Below are positions 1,771 to 29,160 of a stretch of DNA of 35,432 bases, in pieces. The DNA lies in the IMG/VR virus record IMGVR_UViG_2737471826_000010, positions 1-35,432 of that record; one strand, 5' to 3'. The position numbers and the translations under genes were made by a program. This DNA comes from a virus. Taxonomy: Duplodnaviria; Heunggongvirae; Uroviricota; Caudoviricetes. The notes under the pieces are model-generated. The model saw nothing but the letters and a program-made list of their open reading frames with translations, had not been told where the DNA came from and ran no database searches. The number at the start of each line of letters is the position of its first letter. Within the stretch, counting starts at the first letter, position 1.

Positions 1771-2355
1771 TTATTGTTTGTTTTTTTCGTTCTGGTTGAT
1801 GACAAATTCAATGTAACTTTCGATCTTTGCTTTCTCGGTTTCGGGTAACAATGCGTAGCGCGAGCGATCATAGTTGATGGTCGCAGGGTCATGCGGATGA
1901 ATCAGTAGTTCATATCCGTGACGCCCGAATGCAGATGCAACATTCTCCAGGGTGGAAATGGAAACGCTGACCTCATTGTTTAACAGGCGGCTTATTGTCA
2001 CCTGGGCGACGCCGGATGCGCGGTGAAGTTTTCCCTGAGTTGAAAGGTCGCGGCTTTCACTCATCCAGCGTTCCAGGTTGTGAGCCGCCAGCTGACCTAT
2101 ATCACTCGGGCCGACAGGCTGAAAACCCTCCTGAGAAAGCGAGCGATCAATATCAAGCCAGTTACGGGGTTTATTGGCGGCAGCTTCAATTTTTCGTGCA
2201 ACCTGGTCGCCGATAACCTTCTTGCCAAGAGCCCAGCGGTTTACCAGATTTGCCTGAGTTCCAAGTTTTTCTGCCATCCGCGTCTGAACACCATTGAATT
2301 CACGGTCGATCAAGTCGTTGAGATTTTGCCTGCGGACGTCCTGGATACTTTTCAT
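1771..2355 (-). CDS. CI-like prophage repressor with two helix-turn-helix regions; no peptidase motif seen
   Basis: 194 aa; N-terminal HTH (QTRMAEKLGTQANLVNRWALGKKVIG) and second HTH-like segment (ASGVAQVTISRLLNNE); divergent from cro across the operator; no GDSM or Ser/Lys autocleavage signature by eye. Confidence 0.65.
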   Translation of the reverse strand: MKSIQDVRRQNLNDLIDREFNGVQTRMAEKLGTQANLVNRWALGKKVIGDQVARKIEAAANKPRNWLDIDRSLSQEGFQPVGPSDIGQLAAHNLERWMSESRDLSTQGKLHRASGVAQVTISRLLNNEVSVSISTLENVASAFGRHGYELLIHPHDPATINYDRSRYALLPETEKAKIESYIEFVINQNEKNKQ

Positions 2356-2410
2356 TTTCTGGAAAATCGCCTCATATATGAATCAGTAGATGATTCAATT
2401 TAAAGCAATA

Positions 2411-2425
2411 TTACCCAACAGGTAA
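2411..2425. promoter_or_regulatory. operator site TTACC-CAACA-GGTAA (OR, perfect copy)
   Basis: Perfect palindrome in the repressor-cro intergenic region. Confidence 0.65.
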
Positions 2426-2427
2426 AT

Positions 2428-2473
2428 GCACCTCATAGGTAACTATCCTTGATTTTTGTTACCTTATGGGTGA
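2428..2473. promoter_or_regulatory. two degenerate operator sites plus PR-like promoter
   Basis: GCACC-TCATA-GGTAA (2428..2442) and TTACC-TTATG-GGTGA (2459..2473); candidate -35 TTGATT at 2449..2454 and -10 near 2472..2477; three-site layout like OR1-3. Confidence 0.45.
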
Positions 2474-2509
2474 ATATTTATTATCTGAAATAAATATCAG
2501 GCAATAGCT

Positions 2510-2740
2510 ATGAGCGATAACGGACATTTCGATTTCAAAAAGCACTGGCTTGCACTTACTCCGGATGAGCGTGAAGCCTTCGCACAGGAAGCCGGAACGA
2601 CGAGTCACTATATCCAGACTCACTTAACAGGTAAGCGCAAAATGCCAGGTAAAGTATTGATGAATGGGCTTTTTAAAGCCTGTAAAACAAGACAATGGCT
2701 GCGCTCAAAAGCAGAACTGGCATACTTCTTCTACTCATGA
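2510..2740 (+). CDS. cro: Cro-like small HTH regulator
   Basis: 76 aa, divergent from repressor; HTH-like REAFAQEAGTTSHYIQTHLTGKRKMP; followed by a terminator. Confidence 0.55.
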   Translation: MSDNGHFDFKKHWLALTPDEREAFAQEAGTTSHYIQTHLTGKRKMPGKVLMNGLFKACKTRQWLRSKAELAYFFYS

Positions 2741-2762
2741 TATCCAGCCACAACCCTCTGTA

Positions 2763-2784
2763 GACCGCCATCCGGCGGTCTTTT
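2763..2784 (+). terminator. rho-independent terminator (tR1-like) after cro
   Basis: Stem GACCGCC/GGCGGTC, loop ATCC, then TTTT; a half-degenerate operator copy GTACC-TCAAA-GGTAA follows at 2796..2810. Confidence 0.6.
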
Positions 2785-2890
2785 CATATCTATTCGTACC
2801 TCAAAGGTAATAAAAAACCAAATATGGTTGATCTTTTTTTTGTGTCAGCACAAAATAACCGTAATCCCAATACTAATAACAGGGCTTACC

Positions 2891-3091
2891 ATGGAAATCA
2901 TTACACGTATTGATGCCGCAAAGCGCGGACTTAAACGCTACTACACCGGAAAAACATGTAAGCACGGACATGACAGTGAACGCTGGGTTTACAACGGACA
3001 CTGTGTTGAGTGCACCATGGAATCAAACCGTCGTATCAGGGCAGAGATTAAGCAGATCATGATTAATTCCTCCCCACAACATTCAAGCTGA
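2891..3091 (+). CDS. small Cys/His-rich protein, possible zinc-binding regulator (cII position)
   Basis: Start assigned to ATG 2891 (MEIITRIDAAKRGLKRYYTGKTCKHGHDSERWVYNGHCVEC...); the track N-terminal extension is hydrophobic read-through of intergenic sequence. Confidence 0.35.
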   Translation: MEIITRIDAAKRGLKRYYTGKTCKHGHDSERWVYNGHCVECTMESNRRIRAEIKQIMINSSPQHSS

Positions 3092-3106
3092 TAGCGGAGA
3101 TTAATC

Positions 3107-3922
3107 ATGAGCAGACATGCAACAGATTGGGCCTGGGAGACAGATCCAGGTAGCTCGTCATTAAAGCTCATACTGCTCTCGATGGCTGACAGAGCCGATG
3201 AATATAACCTCTGCTACCCCAGCATAGAACGCCTCGTTAAAGACACTTGCCTGAATAAAAAAACCGTGCAGGCCGGACTTATATCGCTCATGAAAATGGG
3301 GCTTATTTCAGATACCGGGGAGAGAAAGGGAGCGACAAAAAGAGTGCGGGTTTTCTCTCTTAATATAACCAAAAACGGGAACATTAAAGGCAACCGAGAG
3401 GGGGGTAATGAACCCGAAAGCGGTAATGTTACCGAAAACTGGAATATACCCAAAAACGGGATGTTGAATGATCCCAAAAACGGGATGTTGAATGATCCCA
3501 AAAACGGGATCCAGAACCAGTCATATAACCAGTCATTTAACCAAGAGAGGGAGAGCAGGACAAAAAACGGGGATTCTGTGCATCATGACCCCGGCGCAAA
3601 CAACGCCGTGATGAATAACTTTGTTCCTCCTGGTGGGCCAGGGCAATTAGGCAAATTTGTCATGCATGAACAATGGCAGCCATCAGATGACTTTCTTCGG
3701 AAAAGCTCATTGCAGGGGATCTACCTGGACAGTCTGCCAACGGCACAGGAACTTGCAGAGTTCAGAATTTACTGGATGGCTGAGGGTAAGGCATACCATC
3801 AGGCACAGTGGGAGCAGAAGCTGGCAAGGCGGCTGCAGATTAGCAGACAGAAGCAATCAACATTACCTGATAACAACGTTCCGCACTGGAACAGCCCTGA
3901 AGCATGGGAGGATTTCTTGTGA
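3107..3922 (+). CDS. replication initiator, O-like (HTH N-terminus, Asn-rich repeat linker, lambda-O-like C-terminus)
   Basis: 271 aa; N-terminal HTH (LKLILLSMADRADEYNLCYPSIERLVKDTCLNKKTVQAGLISL); central NG-rich repeats encoded by DNA iterons; C-terminal WQPSDDF...IYWMAEGKAY; overlaps downstream P-like gene. Confidence 0.6.
   Translation: MSRHATDWAWETDPGSSSLKLILLSMADRADEYNLCYPSIERLVKDTCLNKKTVQAGLISLMKMGLISDTGERKGATKRVRVFSLNITKNGNIKGNREGGNEPESGNVTENWNIPKNGMLNDPKNGMLNDPKNGIQNQSYNQSFNQERESRTKNGDSVHHDPGANNAVMNNFVPPGGPGQLGKFVMHEQWQPSDDFLRKSSLQGIYLDSLPTAQELAEFRIYWMAEGKAYHQAQWEQKLARRLQISRQKQSTLPDNNVPHWNSPEAWEDFL
3369..3512. repeat. iteron array inside the O-like gene (candidate replication origin)
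   Basis: CCAAAAACGGGA at 3369..3380; 24-bp unit CCCAAAAACGGGATGTTGAATGAT at 3449..3472 and 3473..3496, partial third copy 3497..3512; degenerate copies near 3431 and 3560. Confidence 0.5.
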
Positions 3923-4704
3923 ACAACGTTTTTACCGCGATACAAAACCGTGACGGAGAAGCCCTTTCTCGCATGTCAGGTTATGAGCATCAGTACGTCA
4001 ACAATGACAATGTGGTGAACATGTCAGCAGAGAGGCTTGTTGATGCCCTTTTTAAACAGCTGAAACAACTGTTTCCGGCGGCAGTGGTAACCAACCTGAA
4101 GACGCCAGAGCAGGAAGTTGCTGCAAAACAGCAGTGGATTGCTGCGTTTGCCGAAGGGGGGATCCGAACCCGTGAACAGGTTTCTGCTGGTATGCGCCAC
4201 GCCCGCGCCAGTGAGTCTCCGTTCTGGCCGTCGCCAGGGCAATTCATCAAGTGGTGTAAAGACAGCAAGATGGTTCTTGGCGTCACCATTGACGATGTGA
4301 TGGCGGAGTTTCACCGGTACAGCAAGGAAAAAAGTTTATATCCTGGTGGTCCCGAAAGATTCCCGTGGCGACATCCGGTTATGTACTGGGTCGTATGTGA
4401 TACCCGCCGTGCAATGTATCAGCGCCAGCTTAGCGAGATTGAGGTTGAGAAACACGCGCGCAGGCTGCTCGATGATTGGGCGAAAAAGGTGGCTTCCGGA
4501 CAGCAGATACCCGATCCGGTGATCAGCATACAGGCAAAGCCAGAACCCATGAGTACGCCTCCGGACACAGGGAGAGACGTTTACCATCCACCAGGGCGAA
4601 GTTTCGGGTGCATGCCTAACGCCGCCACCCTTGGGGGAATAACACCGGCGCAGTGGCTGATGGAGGAATACAGGCGGGGAAAGGCGTCAGGATTTATCAA
4701 GTAA
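3904..4704 (+). CDS. replication protein P-like helicase loader
   Basis: Strong resemblance to lambda P central region (FPAAVVTNL...EQVSAGMRHARASESPFWPSPGQFIKWCKDSK versus lambda FPASLANR...EQVNAGMRVARRQNRPFLPSPGQFVAWCREEAS, recalled from memory); true start may be in-frame GTG 3919 with GGGAGGA RBS. Confidence 0.75.
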   Translation: MGGFLVNNVFTAIQNRDGEALSRMSGYEHQYVNNDNVVNMSAERLVDALFKQLKQLFPAAVVTNLKTPEQEVAAKQQWIAAFAEGGIRTREQVSAGMRHARASESPFWPSPGQFIKWCKDSKMVLGVTIDDVMAEFHRYSKEKSLYPGGPERFPWRHPVMYWVVCDTRRAMYQRQLSEIEVEKHARRLLDDWAKKVASGQQIPDPVISIQAKPEPMSTPPDTGRDVYHPPGRSFGCMPNAATLGGITPAQWLMEEYRRGKASGFIK

Positions 4705-4741
4705 TACCAGCGCGATAGCGCATTTTTTTACGTCTCGATAA

Positions 4742-4756
4742 TTACCTTAGAGGTAA
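4742..4756. promoter_or_regulatory. operator site TTACC-TTAGA-GGTAA
   Basis: Perfect palindrome copy upstream of a candidate promoter (-35 TTGATT, -10 TTTAAT) for the 4822 gene. Confidence 0.55.
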
Positions 4757-4803
4757 TAAAATATTCTAAAATCTATTGATTTCGTGTCTTATGTGGTTTT
4801 TAA

Positions 4804-4818
4804 TTACCTAAGGGGTAA
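4804..4818. promoter_or_regulatory. operator site TTACC-TAAGG-GGTAA
   Basis: Perfect palindrome copy 4 bp upstream of ATG 4822, overlapping its RBS and predicted +1. Confidence 0.55.
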
Positions 4819-4821
4819 ATC

Positions 4822-5169
4822 ATGAGAAAACAGATGCAGGCTCTTGGTCGACTCAAAACAGGCCAGATGAACAAAACAGAATCTGCGTATTGCCAGCACC
4901 TTGAGCTGCGTAAACGTGCAGGAGAAATCGTCTGGTATCGATTTGAGGGTATCAAGCTGCGGTTAGCTGACAACACGTTCTATACGCCAGATTTTGCTGT
5001 GATGCTCGCCACCGGCGAGATGGAACTGCACGAAGTGAAAGGGGGATTCTGGACCGATGACGCCAGAGTGAAAACCAAAGTCGCCGCAGATCAGTATCCG
5101 TTCCGAATCATCGGGGTAACGGTTAAGCCAAAGAAAGCAGGTGGTGGCTGGAACATCGAAGAGTTCTGA
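4822..5169 (+). CDS. DUF1064-type phage protein (PD-(D/E)XK-like)
   Basis: 115 aa; YTPDFAV...ELHEVKGGFW core resembles DUF1064 proteins of lambdoid prophages. Confidence 0.5.
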   Translation: MRKQMQALGRLKTGQMNKTESAYCQHLELRKRAGEIVWYRFEGIKLRLADNTFYTPDFAVMLATGEMELHEVKGGFWTDDARVKTKVAADQYPFRIIGVTVKPKKAGGGWNIEEF

Positions 5170-5230
5170 ATCGACGATCTTTTTAGTTATCAATGTAATC
5201 AATAAGTTATGTGGATAAGCGAGGGTAAAG

Positions 5231-5494
5231 ATGGAAAGTAATATCAAAGGGTTAGTTGCCGCCGGGCATGAGATGGCTTCGGAACTGAAAGCAGAATGTG
5301 GTGCCGTTGATATGCGCAGTGTGGCAAAGCTGATCAGCGATTTGGCAACGCAACTGGAAGTGCAACTGGTGCGTGCTAATGCGCTGGCAGCGGAGAATGC
5401 GGTAATGCTCGAAACTATTGAAGCCGTTCGCAGTGTTGCGGATAACTCCAGTGGAATTGCCGGATGGCATTTGAATGGCGATATCGCTACGTGA
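5231..5494 (+). CDS. hypothetical protein (87 aa)
   Basis: ORF with GAGGG RBS; predicted helical; no recognisable motif. Confidence 0.45.
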   Translation: MESNIKGLVAAGHEMASELKAECGAVDMRSVAKLISDLATQLEVQLVRANALAAENAVMLETIEAVRSVADNSSGIAGWHLNGDIAT

Positions 5495-5775
5495 AAAAAG
5501 GCATTACGGACTCACAGGGGGAGCCGTGGGTTGGTGACTGGAAATATGTACCGACAAAAGAGGATTGCAACGACAGACCGAACTATGAAATTCAGGCGTT
5601 ATTCACTGCCCCGCCTGTGCCACTGACACCAGAAGGATTGATTAAAGCAGTGCGTTTCTATGAACAGGTTAAGCGTGAGAATCCGCCAGTCGAAACCGGA
5701 GCATGGAAAGACGCTGTTGACTGGGTGCTCAAAGAGGCTTGCCAGGCTGTAAACATTGGTACCAAAGGAGAGTGA
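5464..5775 (+). CDS. hypothetical protein (103 aa)
   Basis: ORF overlapping the previous gene by 31 nt in another frame; start uncertain. Confidence 0.35.
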   Translation: MAFEWRYRYVKKGITDSQGEPWVGDWKYVPTKEDCNDRPNYEIQALFTAPPVPLTPEGLIKAVRFYEQVKRENPPVETGAWKDAVDWVLKEACQAVNIGTKGE

Positions 5776-10038: not shown

Positions 10039-10115
10039 TGGCGTGGCATGCAGGATTCGAACCTGCGACCAACCGCTTAGAAGGCGGTTGCTCTGTCCAA
10101 CTGAGCTAATGCCAC
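10039..10115 (-). tRNA. tRNA-Arg (anticodon UCU), argU-like
   Basis: 77 nt; acceptor GTGGCAT/ATGCCAC, D-arm GCTC...GAGC, anticodon stem ACCGC/GCGGT with loop CTTCTAA, T-arm GCAGG-TTCGAAT-CCTGC, encoded CCA; close to E. coli argU with compensatory stem changes. Confidence 0.9.
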
Positions 10116-28891: not shown

Positions 28892-29048
28892 GGTGGTTAT
28901 CTCCACTTAGTGATTTTAATCACCACCGCAACGCCAATTACTGGTGGTGAACTGGACAAGGTTGGCGTACCGGCCTAAGTGGTACCGGCGTCCTTTCGGA
29001 CCCCTGCCCAGCCCACCATAATTCGGATATAGCTGTGCTTAACGCATA

Positions 29049-29071
29049 AAAAAACCACGTCTGGCGTGGTA
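29049..29071 (-). terminator. rho-independent terminator between the two antirepressor genes
   Basis: Stem ACCACG/CGTGGT, loop TCTGG, minus-strand T7 tract. Confidence 0.6.
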
Positions 29072-29160
29072 TGCGCCACTTAGTAACCCGGGACGCCAAT
29101 CCCGGCACTGGATTTTGCCAGTGCCTGATTACTATGGCACAAGAGGAGTGCGATGTAAAT

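What the first reader, a model, noticed from the sequence alone, without database searches (positions are those of the whole stretch)
3369..3575. Iteron array inside the O-like initiator gene marks a probable origin
Four to six copies of CCAAAAACGGGA, including two perfect tandem 24-bp units, lie in the middle of the initiator gene and encode its Asn/Gly-rich linker (PKNGMLND repeats). This is the lambda arrangement where ori sits inside gene O and the initiator binds its own coding sequence. Here the N-terminal DNA-binding domain is a different HTH type from lambda O, joined to a lambda-O-like C-terminus and a clearly lambda-P-like loader.
Basis: partly seen in the sequence, partly recalled or inferred. 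Interest (0 to 1): 0.5.

Follow-up and report, generated by a model that had tools for sequence, protein, structure and literature searches.

The report
Replication origin inside a prophage initiator gene
A run of short DNA repeats in the middle of a phiV10-like E. coli prophage's replication-initiator gene is very probably that phage's replication origin, arranged as in phage lambda, so it is an ordinary feature that had simply not been annotated.

Summary
CCAAAAACGGGA occurs exactly four times (3369, 3450, 3474, 3498), with degenerate copies at 3414, 3432 and 3561. All lie in the linker-coding middle of a 271-aa initiator gene (3107-3922), which is followed by a lambda-P-type loader gene.

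The window is a phiV10-like (Uetakevirus) E. coli prophage. The origin reading is well supported by comparison, though untested experimentally:
- I retrieved 76 diverse relatives using the N-terminal domain alone. They carry a mean of 5.1 similar repeats at the same place, against 2.1 in codon-shuffled controls.
- In 61 of the 76 the copies fall in two or three reading frames, so this is a DNA-level element, not a peptide repeat.
- The repeats have dyad symmetry, and the two arms change together between relatives.
- They closely resemble the annotated lambda and phi80 iterons.

- The C-terminus is not lambda-O-like. It is a DnaT C-terminal ssDNA-binding domain (E 7e-21), with all six DnaT ssDNA-contact residues conserved or conservatively replaced.
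- The N-domain is a different Pfam family from lambda O (HTH_36), but it appears distantly related to it.

One new detail: a conserved triple 12/13-nt GAAYC box and an A/purine-rich tract follow the last iteron. This is a candidate unwinding element. There is no strongly AT-rich tract in this window.

Verdict: a new member of a known kind.

The parts
3107..3922 (+). Replication initiator gene (271 aa): N-terminal HTH_36 domain, repeat-encoded linker, DnaT-CTD-like C-terminal domain
   Evidence: ORF. Pfam HTH_36 (aa 18-67, E 1.8e-10) plus DnaT (aa 184-252, E 1.1e-15). PHROG 1032 'replication initiation protein', E 1.5e-107. 99.4% identical DNA in phage phiv142-3 and 98% in phiV10.
3107..3364 (+). 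Coding region of the N-terminal DNA-binding (winged-helix-type HTH) domain, aa 1-86
   Evidence: HTH_36 match. This segment alone was used to retrieve relatives (A3). All 77 aligned relatives match HTH_36.
3369..3380 (+). Iteron 1: exact core CCAAAAACGGGA with weak dyad symmetry
   Evidence: Only one variable core position among 44 distinct population alleles.
3414..3425 (+). Iteron 2, degenerate here (CCGAAAGCGGTA). The window carries a private A>G change at 3420; 43 of 44 alleles read CCGAAAACGGTA
3432..3443 (+). Iteron 3 (CCGAAAACTGGA). The window carries a private G>T change at 3440; 43 of 44 alleles read CCGAAAACGGGA
3450..3461 (+). Iteron 4: exact core, first of three copies spaced 24 bp apart
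   Evidence: Core invariant in 44 distinct alleles.
3471..3486 (+). Iteron 5 with 5-bp dyad arms, ATCCC-AAAAAC-GGGAT (core 3474-3485)
   Evidence: Core invariant in the population.
3494..3511 (+). Iteron 6 with perfect 6-bp dyad arms, GATCCC-AAAAAC-GGGATC (core 3498-3509)
   Evidence: Core invariant in the population.
3513..3543 (+). Three (G/T)AACC boxes at 12-nt steps (GAACCAGTCATAT AACCAGTCATTT AACC). This is the window's version of a conserved triple 12/13-nt box that follows the last iteron in relatives. Candidate unwinding or helicase-loading element.
   Evidence: TRF 12-bp x2.4. At least three RAAYC boxes at 11-14-nt steps start 4-13 nt after the last iteron in 40 of 68 diverse loci (45 of 68 have such a chain within 420 nt of the N-domain), against 0.6% of codon-shuffled controls. 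Steps of 12 and 13 nt are mixed in 41 of 45. Alignment and unit matrix. No variable third-codon positions in the population.
3544..3572 (+). Purine-rich tract (AGAGAGGGAGAGCAGGACAAAAAACGGGG), in the position of the A-rich tract of relatives and of lambda's AT-rich tract. It contains the doubtful 7th repeat at 3561-3572.
   Evidence: 78% purine in 3535-3574, among the most purine-rich 40-mers of 2300-5300. Relatives have TAAAAATAAAAA here. 3561-3572 is polymorphic.
3644..3901 (+). Coding region of the DnaT C-terminal-domain-like ssDNA-binding domain (aa 180-265)
   Evidence: phmmer against PDB: E. coli DnaT chains 9zbt_D, 6aep, 4ou6, E 7e-21 to 2e-19. The six ssDNA-binding residues of DnaT (Y127, W128, K133, F135, K143, R146; PMC4132743) align with Y222, W223, K228, Y230, K238 and R241.
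3919..4704 (+). Lambda-P-type helicase loader gene. The GTG start overlaps the initiator stop (GTGA), as annotated in phiV10; an in-frame ATG lies at 3904.
   Evidence: PF06992 E 1.5e-56. PHROG 109 'P-like helicase loader' E 7e-92. 31% identity to lambda P, E 2e-35. phiV10 annotation.

Best explanation
The repeats are iterons, and with the sequence on their right they form the vegetative replication origin of this phiV10-like prophage, lying inside the initiator gene as in lambda.

Proposed mechanism:
1. Dimers of the initiator's N-terminal winged-helix HTH domain bind the five or six dyad-symmetric sites (consensus (G)ATCCCAAAAACGGGAT(C), spaced 18-24 bp) and build a nucleoprotein complex.
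2. This complex destabilises the adjacent right-hand segment: three GAAYC 12-mers plus the purine-rich tract, 3513-3572.
3. The C-terminal DnaT-like domains, tethered by the flexible linker that the iterons themselves encode, bind the exposed single strand.
4. The lambda-P-type loader, encoded immediately downstream, delivers host DnaB.

Shown here: the repeat array, its position, its DNA-level conservation and dyad symmetry across relatives, the domain identities, and the partner gene.

Inferred: binding of the N-domain to the repeats, the site of unwinding, the role of the DnaT-like domain, and the contact with P-DnaB.
For: 1. Statistics. There are four exact 12-mers and two or three degenerate ones within 204 bp, and this is the top tandem repeat in the window.

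2. Gene context. The array lies in an initiator gene (PHROG 1032, E 1.5e-107) followed by a P-type loader gene. It is in the early-right operon, downstream of the repressor/cro pair.

3. Unbiased comparison. Relatives were fetched using aa 1-86 only, which excludes the repeats. In the 76 full-length relatives, from Vibrio, Acinetobacter, Pseudoalteromonas, Marinomonas, Providencia, Edwardsiella, Desulfovibrionaceae and others, the best 12-mer family just 3' of the N-domain has a mean of 5.1 copies. Codon-shuffled controls give 2.1 and a control region gives 1.9. In 61 of 76 the copies occupy two or three reading frames, with spacings of 17, 22, 23 and 25 bp. The repeat is therefore selected as DNA, as in lambda.

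4. Dyad symmetry with concerted arm changes. Arm pairs seen are TCCC/GGGA, TACC/GGTA, TTCC/GGAA and CCCCC/GGGGG. The mean arm length is 4.05 against 3.08 when shuffled.

5. Resemblance to experimentally defined iterons annotated in the reference records. Lambda has TCCCTCAAAACGAGGGA, spaced 20-24 bp. Phi80 gp15 sites read TTCCCGAAAACGGGAA.

6. The array follows the N-domain, not the C-domain or the partner gene. All 77 relatives have HTH_36. C-domains vary: DnaT-like in 8, Phg_2220_C in 5, DnaA_N in 2, and a lambda-O type in phage GF-2. Downstream genes also vary: lambda-P type 17, DnaB 3, AAA_25 4, IstB 2.

7. Population data. The three copies spaced 24 bp apart are invariant in 44 distinct alleles. 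Copy number varies from 2 to 8 units in frame-preserving steps. Stx phages likewise have six iterons against lambda's four (PMC7466680).

8. Codon choice. Pro is CCC in 4 of 4 codons in the array, against 8 of 71 elsewhere. Gly is GGG in 6 of 9, against 24 of 89.

9. The DnaT C-terminal domain forms ssDNA filaments that mark a helicase-loading site (PMC13377028), and its ssDNA-contact residues are conserved here.
Against: - There is no experimental test, and I found no paper on the origin of phiV10/epsilon15-type phages.
- The window has no strongly AT-rich tract beside the iterons. AT is 60-62% at 3500-3545, against a regional mean of 53% and about 80% in lambda. The least stable 40-mers of the region are all intergenic: 4738-4777, 2459-2498 and 2374-2413.
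- In this window all copies are in one reading frame, so the window alone cannot separate a DNA repeat from a peptide repeat.
- Population diversity in the iteron cores is only modestly lower than elsewhere: 3 of 60 sites vary in the five best cores, against roughly 8% gene-wide.
- Two iterons carry private mutations in this window.
- Homology of the N-domain to lambda O is weak.
- The AlphaFold single-sequence model was unusable, with mean pLDDT 37.
Confidence: 0.78

Rival explanations
1. The repeats are initiator-binding sites, but they serve autoregulation, copy control or exclusion rather than marking where replication starts. Strand opening and DnaB loading would occur elsewhere, for example in one of the AT-rich intergenic regions.
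For: The least stable DNA of the region is intergenic: 4738-4777 is 82% AT and 2459-2498 is 78% AT. The tract next to the iterons is only about 60% AT.
Against: - The intergenic AT-rich segments carry the dispersed TTACCTnnnnGGTAA palindromes and promoter-like hexamers, so they look like operator/promoter regions.
- A conserved triple 12/13-nt box plus an A-rich tract directly abuts the last iteron in relatives, with the same polarity as lambda's unwinding tract.
- In lambda and phi80 the homologous arrangement is the origin itself (PMC7466680).
Confidence: 0.1
2. The array is a peptide-level repeat: a slippage-prone Asn/Gly/Pro-rich flexible linker (PKNGMLND)n with no function as DNA.
For: - In this window and its close relatives all copies are in one frame.
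- Copy number changes in frame-preserving steps of 18 and 24 bp, giving 2-8 units.
- The linker is compositionally simple.
Against: - In 61 of 76 diverse relatives the same DNA motif recurs in two or three frames, at spacings of 17, 22, 23 or 25 bp.
- Copy 1 encodes TKNG rather than PKNG, yet keeps the DNA core.
- The repeats show dyad symmetry with concerted arm changes.
- The rare codons CCC and GGG are used throughout the array.
- The repeats are near-identical to the annotated phi80 and lambda iterons.
Confidence: 0.05
3. The repeats are bound by some other factor, such as the prophage repressor or a host protein (for example SeqA at the clustered GATC sites), and are unrelated to the initiator's N-domain.
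For: Three GATC sites lie within 3470-3511, one of only two such clusters in the window.
Against: - The repressor's likely operators are a different palindrome, TTACCTnnnnGGTAA.
- GATC is absent from the repeats of many relatives, such as Vibrio phage Her and the Acinetobacter prophages.
- The repeats co-occur with the HTH_36 N-domain across hosts and whatever the partner genes.
Confidence: 0.04

Closest known systems
Phage lambda ori-lambda with the O initiator and P loader
   Same: - Iterons lie inside the initiator gene, at the boundary between the N- and C-domains.
- Spacing is 18-24 bp.
- Sites are dyad-symmetric with the same TCCC..AAAAC..GGGA grammar.
- A purine/A-rich asymmetric tract lies on the promoter-distal side.
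- A P-type loader gene follows immediately downstream (31% identity).

   Different: - The iteron is 3 bp shorter (14-16 bp against 17-19 bp).
- The N-domain is Pfam HTH_36, not Phage_rep_O, and BLASTP against lambda O is not significant.
- The C-domain is DnaT-like, not the lambda-O P-binding domain.
- The flanking tract is only about 60% AT, against about 80% in lambda.
- A triple GAAYC 12/13-mer lies between the iterons and the A-rich tract.
Phage phi80 origin within gene 15 (gp15 initiator, gp14 loader)
   Same: - The annotated gp15-binding sites, TTCCCGAAAACGGGAA, have almost the same core as the window's ATCCCAAAAACGGGAT and the population's CCGAAAACGGGA.
- They lie mid-gene and are followed by a P-type loader gene. 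Database records even name the window's loader 'replication protein 14'.

   Different: - gp15 is a lambda-O-type protein with no detectable BLASTP similarity to the window's initiator.
- It has four sites at 20-21 bp spacing.
Stx phage (933W, P27) origins with six iterons
   Same: Iteron number varies naturally within one origin type. Here there are 2-8 of the 24-bp units, and the extra copies lie distal to the unwinding side (PMC7466680).
   Different: The Stx phages use lambda-O-type initiators and a classic AT-rich tract.
E. coli DnaT (primosomal protein I), the name most databases give this gene
   Same: The C-terminal 86 residues are homologous (E 7e-21). All six ssDNA-binding residues are conserved or conservatively replaced.
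   Different: - The DnaT N-terminal domain and its acidic PriB-binding linker are absent. They are replaced by an HTH_36 DNA-binding domain and an iteron-encoded linker.
- The gene sits in a phage replication module beside a P-type loader.
- It is not a DnaT orthologue.
P22 gene 18 and phage L gene 18 origins
   Same: These initiator genes carry their own, different iterons mid-gene. Annotators routinely infer the origin from such repeats (PMC8022706).
   Different: They pair with a DnaB-type helicase (gp12) rather than a P-type loader, and their repeat sequences differ (for example TGTCCAACGGA in phage L).

Membership tests
Lambda-type origin-in-initiator-gene replication module (O/P type) | Initiator gene immediately followed by a P-type helicase loader gene | tested here: met
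   PF06992 E 1.5e-56; PHROG 109 E 7e-92; 31% identity to lambda P with E 2e-35; start and stop overlap as GTGA.
Lambda-type origin-in-initiator-gene replication module (O/P type) | Four or more direct repeats, spaced about 18-24 bp, inside the initiator gene between its N- and C-domains | tested here: met
   Six copies at 3369-3509 with spacings 45, 18, 18, 24 and 24 bp, encoding aa 88-135, between HTH_36 (aa 18-67) and the DnaT-like domain (aa 180-265).
Lambda-type origin-in-initiator-gene replication module (O/P type) | Repeats are conserved as DNA (read in different frames), not as peptide | tested here: met
   Not decidable from the window, where all copies share one frame. In 61 of 76 diverse relatives the copies occupy two or three frames.
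Lambda-type origin-in-initiator-gene replication module (O/P type) | Each iteron has internal dyad symmetry (a dimer-binding site) | tested here: met
   Arms of 3, 5 and 6 bp in iterons 4-6, weaker in iterons 1-3. Across relatives the arms change together.
Lambda-type origin-in-initiator-gene replication module (O/P type) | Strongly AT-rich unwinding tract adjoining the iterons on the promoter-distal side | tested here: inconclusive
   The window is 60-62% AT at 3500-3545 and purine-rich (78% R) at 3535-3574, against 80% AT in lambda. Relatives have an A-rich TAAAAATAAAAA tract and about +10% AT excess at 30-60 nt to the right of the array.
Lambda-type origin-in-initiator-gene replication module (O/P type) | Initiator N-domain belongs to Phage_rep_O (PF04492) | tested here: not met
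   The window protein matches HTH_36 only, while lambda O matches PF04492 at 5.7e-36. Remote relatedness is suggested by shared hits to PHROG 678 and 345 and a weak hhalign match (probability 29%).
Lambda-type origin-in-initiator-gene replication module (O/P type) | Lambda-O-type C-terminal (P-binding) domain | tested here: not met
   No BLASTP similarity to lambda O. The C-domain is DnaT-like. The lambda-O-type C-domain is found joined to this N-domain in phage GF-2 and in PHROG 391.
Lambda-type origin-in-initiator-gene replication module (O/P type) | Initiator binds the repeats, and the fragment supports initiator- and loader-dependent replication | not testable with these tools
   This needs gel-shift or footprint assays and a trans-complementation replication assay.
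HTH_36-type phage replication initiators (PHROG 1032 and relatives) | N-terminal HTH_36 domain and a full-length match to the family profile | tested here: met
   PHROG 1032 E 1.5e-107 over aa 1-269. HTH_36 is present in 77 of 77 aligned relatives.
DnaT / primosomal protein I (the database name for this gene) | DnaT C-terminal ssDNA-binding three-helix domain with its ssDNA-contact residues | tested here: met
   E 7e-21 to E. coli DnaT residues 85-170. Y127, W128, K133, F135, K143 and R146 align with Y222, W223, K228, Y230, K238 and R241.
DnaT / primosomal protein I (the database name for this gene) | DnaT N-terminal oligomerisation domain and acidic PriB-binding linker, acting in the PriA-PriB restart pathway | tested here: not met
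   The match to DnaT starts at DnaT residue 85. The N-terminal 179 residues are HTH_36 plus the repeat-encoded linker, and the gene lies in a phage replication module.
Iteron-plasmid Rep proteins (RepA, pi, TrfA type) | Tandem winged-helix Rep fold (Rep_3 and related families) with iterons outside the rep gene | tested here: not met
   No Rep_3-type Pfam hit. Only one of 77 relatives has a weak RP-C N-terminal hit (3.7e-4). The iterons here are intragenic.

The most novel reading that the evidence does not exclude
This initiator could be an origin-targeted DnaT. A sequence-specific winged-helix domain would park several DnaT-type C-terminal domains next to a dedicated, sequence-conserved unwinding element. 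That element is three GAAYC 12/13-mers plus an A/purine-rich tract, conserved as DNA from E. coli to Acinetobacter and Desulfovibrionaceae prophages. The DnaT-type domains would form an ssDNA filament there that holds the origin open and marks the site where P-DnaB is loaded.

The triple box would then be a previously undescribed, family-wide origin element, analogous to the 13-mers of oriC. It would give a simple system for testing the DnaA-like model recently proposed for DnaT.
Probability: 0.3. Interest if true: 0.55.

Novelty: new member of a known kind. Interest (0 to 1): 0.3.

Why it matters
- **Annotation.** It supplies a missing annotation for a common prophage group. The gene is present in 424 of 5,426 complete E. 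coli genomes. Public records call it 'primosomal protein', 'DnaT-like ssDNA-binding domain-containing protein' or 'helix-turn-helix domain-containing protein', and do not mark an origin.
- **Practical use.** Knowing the origin and its iteron type helps with engineering phiV10-type reporter phages, predicting replication-based incompatibility or exclusion between prophages, and interpreting the frequent length polymorphism of this gene.
- **Broader picture.** One N-domain-plus-iteron module recombines with several helicase-recruitment modules: a DnaT-like C-domain, a lambda-O C-domain, DnaA_N, a P-type loader, DnaB, and DnaC/IstB-like ATPases.
- **Possible new element.** A conserved triple 12/13-nt box beside the iterons may be the family's unwinding element.

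Tried and rejected
1. AlphaFold2 on the single initiator sequence gave mean pLDDT 37 and was unusable, so no fold search was run.
2. The search for homologous proteins returned only near-identical E. coli alleles among its 120 listed hits. These were useful for names and length variants but not for a deep alignment.
3. A viral-contig scan with the lambda O and phi80 gp15 N-domains returned only lambda-identical loci. A deep Phage_rep_O profile could not be built.
4. Profile comparison therefore stayed weak: hhalign probability 7% with 5 sequences and 29% with 77.
5. Population diversity was tested for extra constraint on the iteron cores. The direction is as expected, but the numbers are too small to be decisive. 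One out-of-register allele had to be removed first.
6. I searched for a lambda-like AT-rich tract and for DnaA boxes. There is no strong AT-rich tract next to the array, and the only TTATCCACA in 2000-5500 is at 5210.
7. Terminator-like hits on the minus strand at 3457-3500 were rejected. They are by-products of neighbouring iteron arms followed by the T-run of the complementary A-tract.
8. Literature searches for an origin in phiV10/epsilon15-type phages or for 'DnaT-like' phage initiators found nothing relevant.
9. GC skew was not used, because transcription direction switches about 1 kb upstream at the divergent repressor/cro promoters and would dominate any signal.
Full report
**What the window is**

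The region matches the early-right operon of phiV10-type (Uetakevirus, epsilon15-like) temperate E. coli phages. The segment 3107-4704 is 99.4% identical to phage phiv142-3 and 98% identical to phiV10. The gene order is also the same: repressor, cro-like gene, small ORF, 'putative primosomal protein', 'replication protein P', DUF1064. The initiator gene is found in 424 of 5,426 complete E. coli genomes.

**Checking the observation**

CCAAAAACGGGA is exact at 3369, 3450, 3474 and 3498. It has two mismatches at 3432 and 3561. That gives 8 hits in the window against 2.7 expected, and none of 100 shuffles reached 8. The 24-bp unit at 3449-3510 (x2.6, 100% matches) is the best tandem repeat in the whole window.

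Comparison with 80 near-identical IMG/VR loci shows a further copy at 3414. It also shows that the window carries private mutations in two copies: 3420 A>G and 3440 G>T. In 43 of 44 distinct alleles these copies read CCGAAAACGGTA and CCGAAAACGGGA. The copy at 3561-3572 is highly polymorphic and is probably not a true repeat. The array encodes residues 88-155 of the 271-aa product.

**The proteins**

The initiator has three parts:
- an N-terminal HTH_36 domain (aa 18-67);
- the repeat-encoded Asn/Gly/Pro-rich linker;
- a C-terminal domain homologous to E. coli DnaT residues 85-170 (E 7e-21 against PDB chains 9zbt, 6aep and 4ou6; PF17948).

The six DnaT residues shown by mutagenesis to bind ssDNA are Y127, W128, K133, F135, K143 and R146 (PMC4132743). 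They align with Y222, W223, K228, Y230, K238 and R241.

The protein has no BLASTP similarity to lambda O or to phi80 gp15. Lambda O has no DnaT-domain hit.

The N-domains are in different Pfam families. Even so, both proteins hit PHROG 678 and PHROG 345 over the same profile region. PHROG 391 joins this N-domain type to the lambda-O C-domain. Phage GF-2 has exactly that combination. hhalign aligns the HTH helices colinearly but weakly.

The downstream gene is a clear lambda-P homologue.

**Is the repeat DNA-level or peptide-level?**

In this window every copy is in the same frame, so the window cannot answer this. I therefore retrieved relatives using only residues 1-86, which excludes the repeats (A3).

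In the 76 full-length diverse relatives, from many Gammaproteobacteria and some Desulfovibrionaceae, the best 12-mer family in the 360 nt after the N-domain has a mean of 5.1 copies. Codon-shuffled controls give 2.1 and a control region gives 1.9. In 61 of the 76 the copies occupy two or three reading frames, with spacings such as 17, 22, 23 and 25 bp. This is the lambda situation, where the four iterons are also read in different frames, and it rules out a purely peptide repeat.

The motif is CC[C/A/G]AAAACGG[G/T/A] in most relatives. Clade-specific variants include Acinetobacter TCCCAACAATGG and Desulfovibrionaceae CCCCCGCCGGAA.

The sites are dyad-symmetric, and the two arms change together: TCCC/GGGA, TACC/GGTA, TTCC/GGAA and CCCCC/GGGGG. 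Within the window, iterons 5 and 6 have perfect 5- and 6-bp arms.

Codon choice in the array is skewed to the rare CCC (4 of 4, against 8 of 71 elsewhere) and GGG.

**Resemblance to proven origins**

| Origin | Iteron sequence | Source |
|---|---|---|
| Lambda (annotated iterons) | TCCCTCAAAACGAGGGA and variants, 20-24 bp apart | |
| Phi80 (annotated gp15 sites) | TTCCCGAAAACGGGAA | |
| This window | ATCCCAAAAACGGGAT | |

The window's iteron shares the outer TCCC/GGGA arms and the AAAAC centre. The first lambda iteron and the window's copies are even read in the same frame, as I-P-Q/K-N.

The array also occupies the same relative place in the protein: aa 88-135 of 271 here, about 117-145 of 299 in lambda, and about 122-147 of 302 in phi80.

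**Modularity**

The N-domain-plus-iteron module is combined with different partners.

| Component | Variants seen (number of relatives) |
|---|---|
| C-domain | DnaT-like (8), Phg_2220_C (5), DnaA_N (2), lambda-O type (GF-2) |
| Downstream gene | lambda-P type (17), DnaB-type helicase (3), AAA_25 (4), IstB/DnaC-like (2) |

The repeats therefore track the DNA-binding domain, as iterons should.

**The flank**

Unlike lambda, which reaches 80% AT, the window has no strongly AT-rich tract next to the array. AT is 60-62% at 3500-3545, and the least stable DNA nearby is intergenic.

There is, however, a conserved element directly after the last iteron. It consists of three boxes, aGAAYC(T)nyCAaw, at 12- and 13-nt steps, followed in most relatives by TAAAAATAAAAA.
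- Forty-five of 68 diverse loci have at least three such boxes, against 0.6% of codon-shuffled controls.
- The chain starts 4-13 nt after the last iteron in 40 of those 45.
- The 12/13-nt alternation puts the boxes in different frames in 41 of the 45.

The window's version is GAACCAGTCATAT AACCAGTCATTT AACC (3513-3543), followed by a 78%-purine tract. PhiV10 has one more 12-mer.

The polarity matches lambda: the A/purine-rich strand is the coding strand, and the tract lies on the promoter-distal side of the iterons. I take this to be the likely unwinding or helicase-loading segment, but that is inference.

**Mechanism proposed**

1. N-domain dimers occupy the five or six iterons.
2. The complex strains the adjacent 3513-3572 segment.
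3. The DnaT-like C-domains are held at high local concentration by the flexible linker and bind the exposed strand. The DnaT C-terminal domain forms ssDNA filaments that mark a helicase-loading site (PMC13377028).
4. The P-type loader brings DnaB.

PHROG 15931 matches both the DnaT-like domain and the P domain in one profile. This hints that the two work together.

Transcription of the operon passes through the origin, as in lambda. An operator-like palindrome at 2796-2810 suggests direct repressor control.

**Population variation**

The 24-bp unit occurs 2, 3 (modal), 4 or 6 times in the IMG/VR loci, and up to 8 times in protein databases. Products range from 263 to 311 aa. The 18-bp units also vary in number. 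The three copies spaced 24 bp apart are invariant in 44 distinct alleles. This parallels the difference between four and six iterons in lambda and the Stx phages (PMC7466680).

**Rivals**

- A peptide-only repeat is excluded by the frame analysis.
- Binding sites used only for autoregulation or copy control, with opening elsewhere, cannot be excluded without experiments. This is disfavoured by the conserved flank and by the lambda and phi80 precedents.
- Binding by another factor is unlikely, because the repeats track the HTH_36 domain across hosts.

**Verdict**

It is the well-known lambdoid arrangement, and annotators routinely infer origins this way (for example PMC8022706). That makes it a new member of a known kind.

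The corrections are the DnaT-type C-domain and the probable remote kinship of the N-domain and iterons with lambda and phi80. The additions are the triple-box element and the modular picture. These raise the interest modestly.

Noticed in passing
window 1637, 1699, 2411, 2428, 2459, 2620, 2796, 4742, 4804, 7275, 10438, 28094, 29161, 29541 (15-bp sites): A dispersed palindrome, TTACCTnnnnGGTAA. It gives 39 strand-matches at <=2 mismatches against 5.5 expected. The sites cluster between the repressor and the cro-like gene, just upstream of the replication genes (2796-2810), and between the P-like and DUF1064 genes (4742, 4804). They are probably operators of the prophage repressor at several promoters.
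   Followed up: partly
window 3513-3543, and relatives such as L113, L131, L096 and L006 directly after their last iteron: A conserved triple box, aGAAYC(T)nyCAaw, at alternating 12- and 13-nt steps, followed by TAAAAATAAAAA. It is seen in 45 of 68 diverse relatives against 0.6% of shuffled controls, and it is conserved as DNA across reading frames. I found no description of it in the literature searched.
   Followed up: partly
window 3470-3511: Three GATC (Dam) sites lie inside iterons 5 and 6, within 42 bp. This is one of only two such clusters in the window. Enterobacterial relatives (GF-2, L089, L092, L141) also carry GATC in their iterons. The Vibrio and Acinetobacter relatives do not.
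   Followed up: partly
window 3420 and 3440: The window carries two private substitutions in iterons 2 and 3 that 43 of 44 other alleles lack. This prophage's origin may be slightly weakened.
   Followed up: partly
window 10039-10115 (-): A tRNA-Arg gene (anticodon TCT) within the prophage (ARAGORN; Rfam tRNA, 73 bits).
   Followed up: no
window 28940-29023 (-) and 29048-29124 (-): Rfam matches above gathering score to C4 antisense RNA (66 bits) and to the isrK Hfq-binding RNA (68 bits), lying next to each other. This suggests a P1/P7-type antisense immunity element.
   Followed up: no
window 2891-3091 (+): A small conserved ORF (66 aa, PHROG 1081, function unknown) with two Cys/His pairs (CKHGH...CVEC). 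It lies between a terminator-like hairpin (2762-2781) plus an operator-like palindrome and the initiator gene. It is the homologue of phiV10 p42 and epsilon15 p40.
   Followed up: no
L002 (PP488543.1, Escherichia phage BP9, 131937-138295): A 138-kb record classified as a Vequintavirus carries a phiV10-type early and replication region at its right end, with one 24-bp iteron unit fewer. It looks like a chimeric assembly or a co-assembled prophage. PH444 (PP350014, 115 kb) also contains the region.
   Followed up: no
alignment A4, two unidentified members among L089-L168: Two relatives with the same HTH_36 N-domain match the DnaA N-terminal domain (PF11638, best E 5e-9). This suggests yet another helicase-recruitment module fused to this iteron-binding domain.
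   Followed up: no
window 3107-3922; public records: Databases name this initiator 'primosomal protein', 'DnaT', 'DnaT-like ssDNA-binding domain-containing protein', 'helix-turn-helix domain-containing protein' or even 'pyocin large subunit'. Only PHROGs and the RefSeq phiV10 record call it a replication initiation protein. No origin or iterons are annotated in the relatives' records I fetched.
   Followed up: yes
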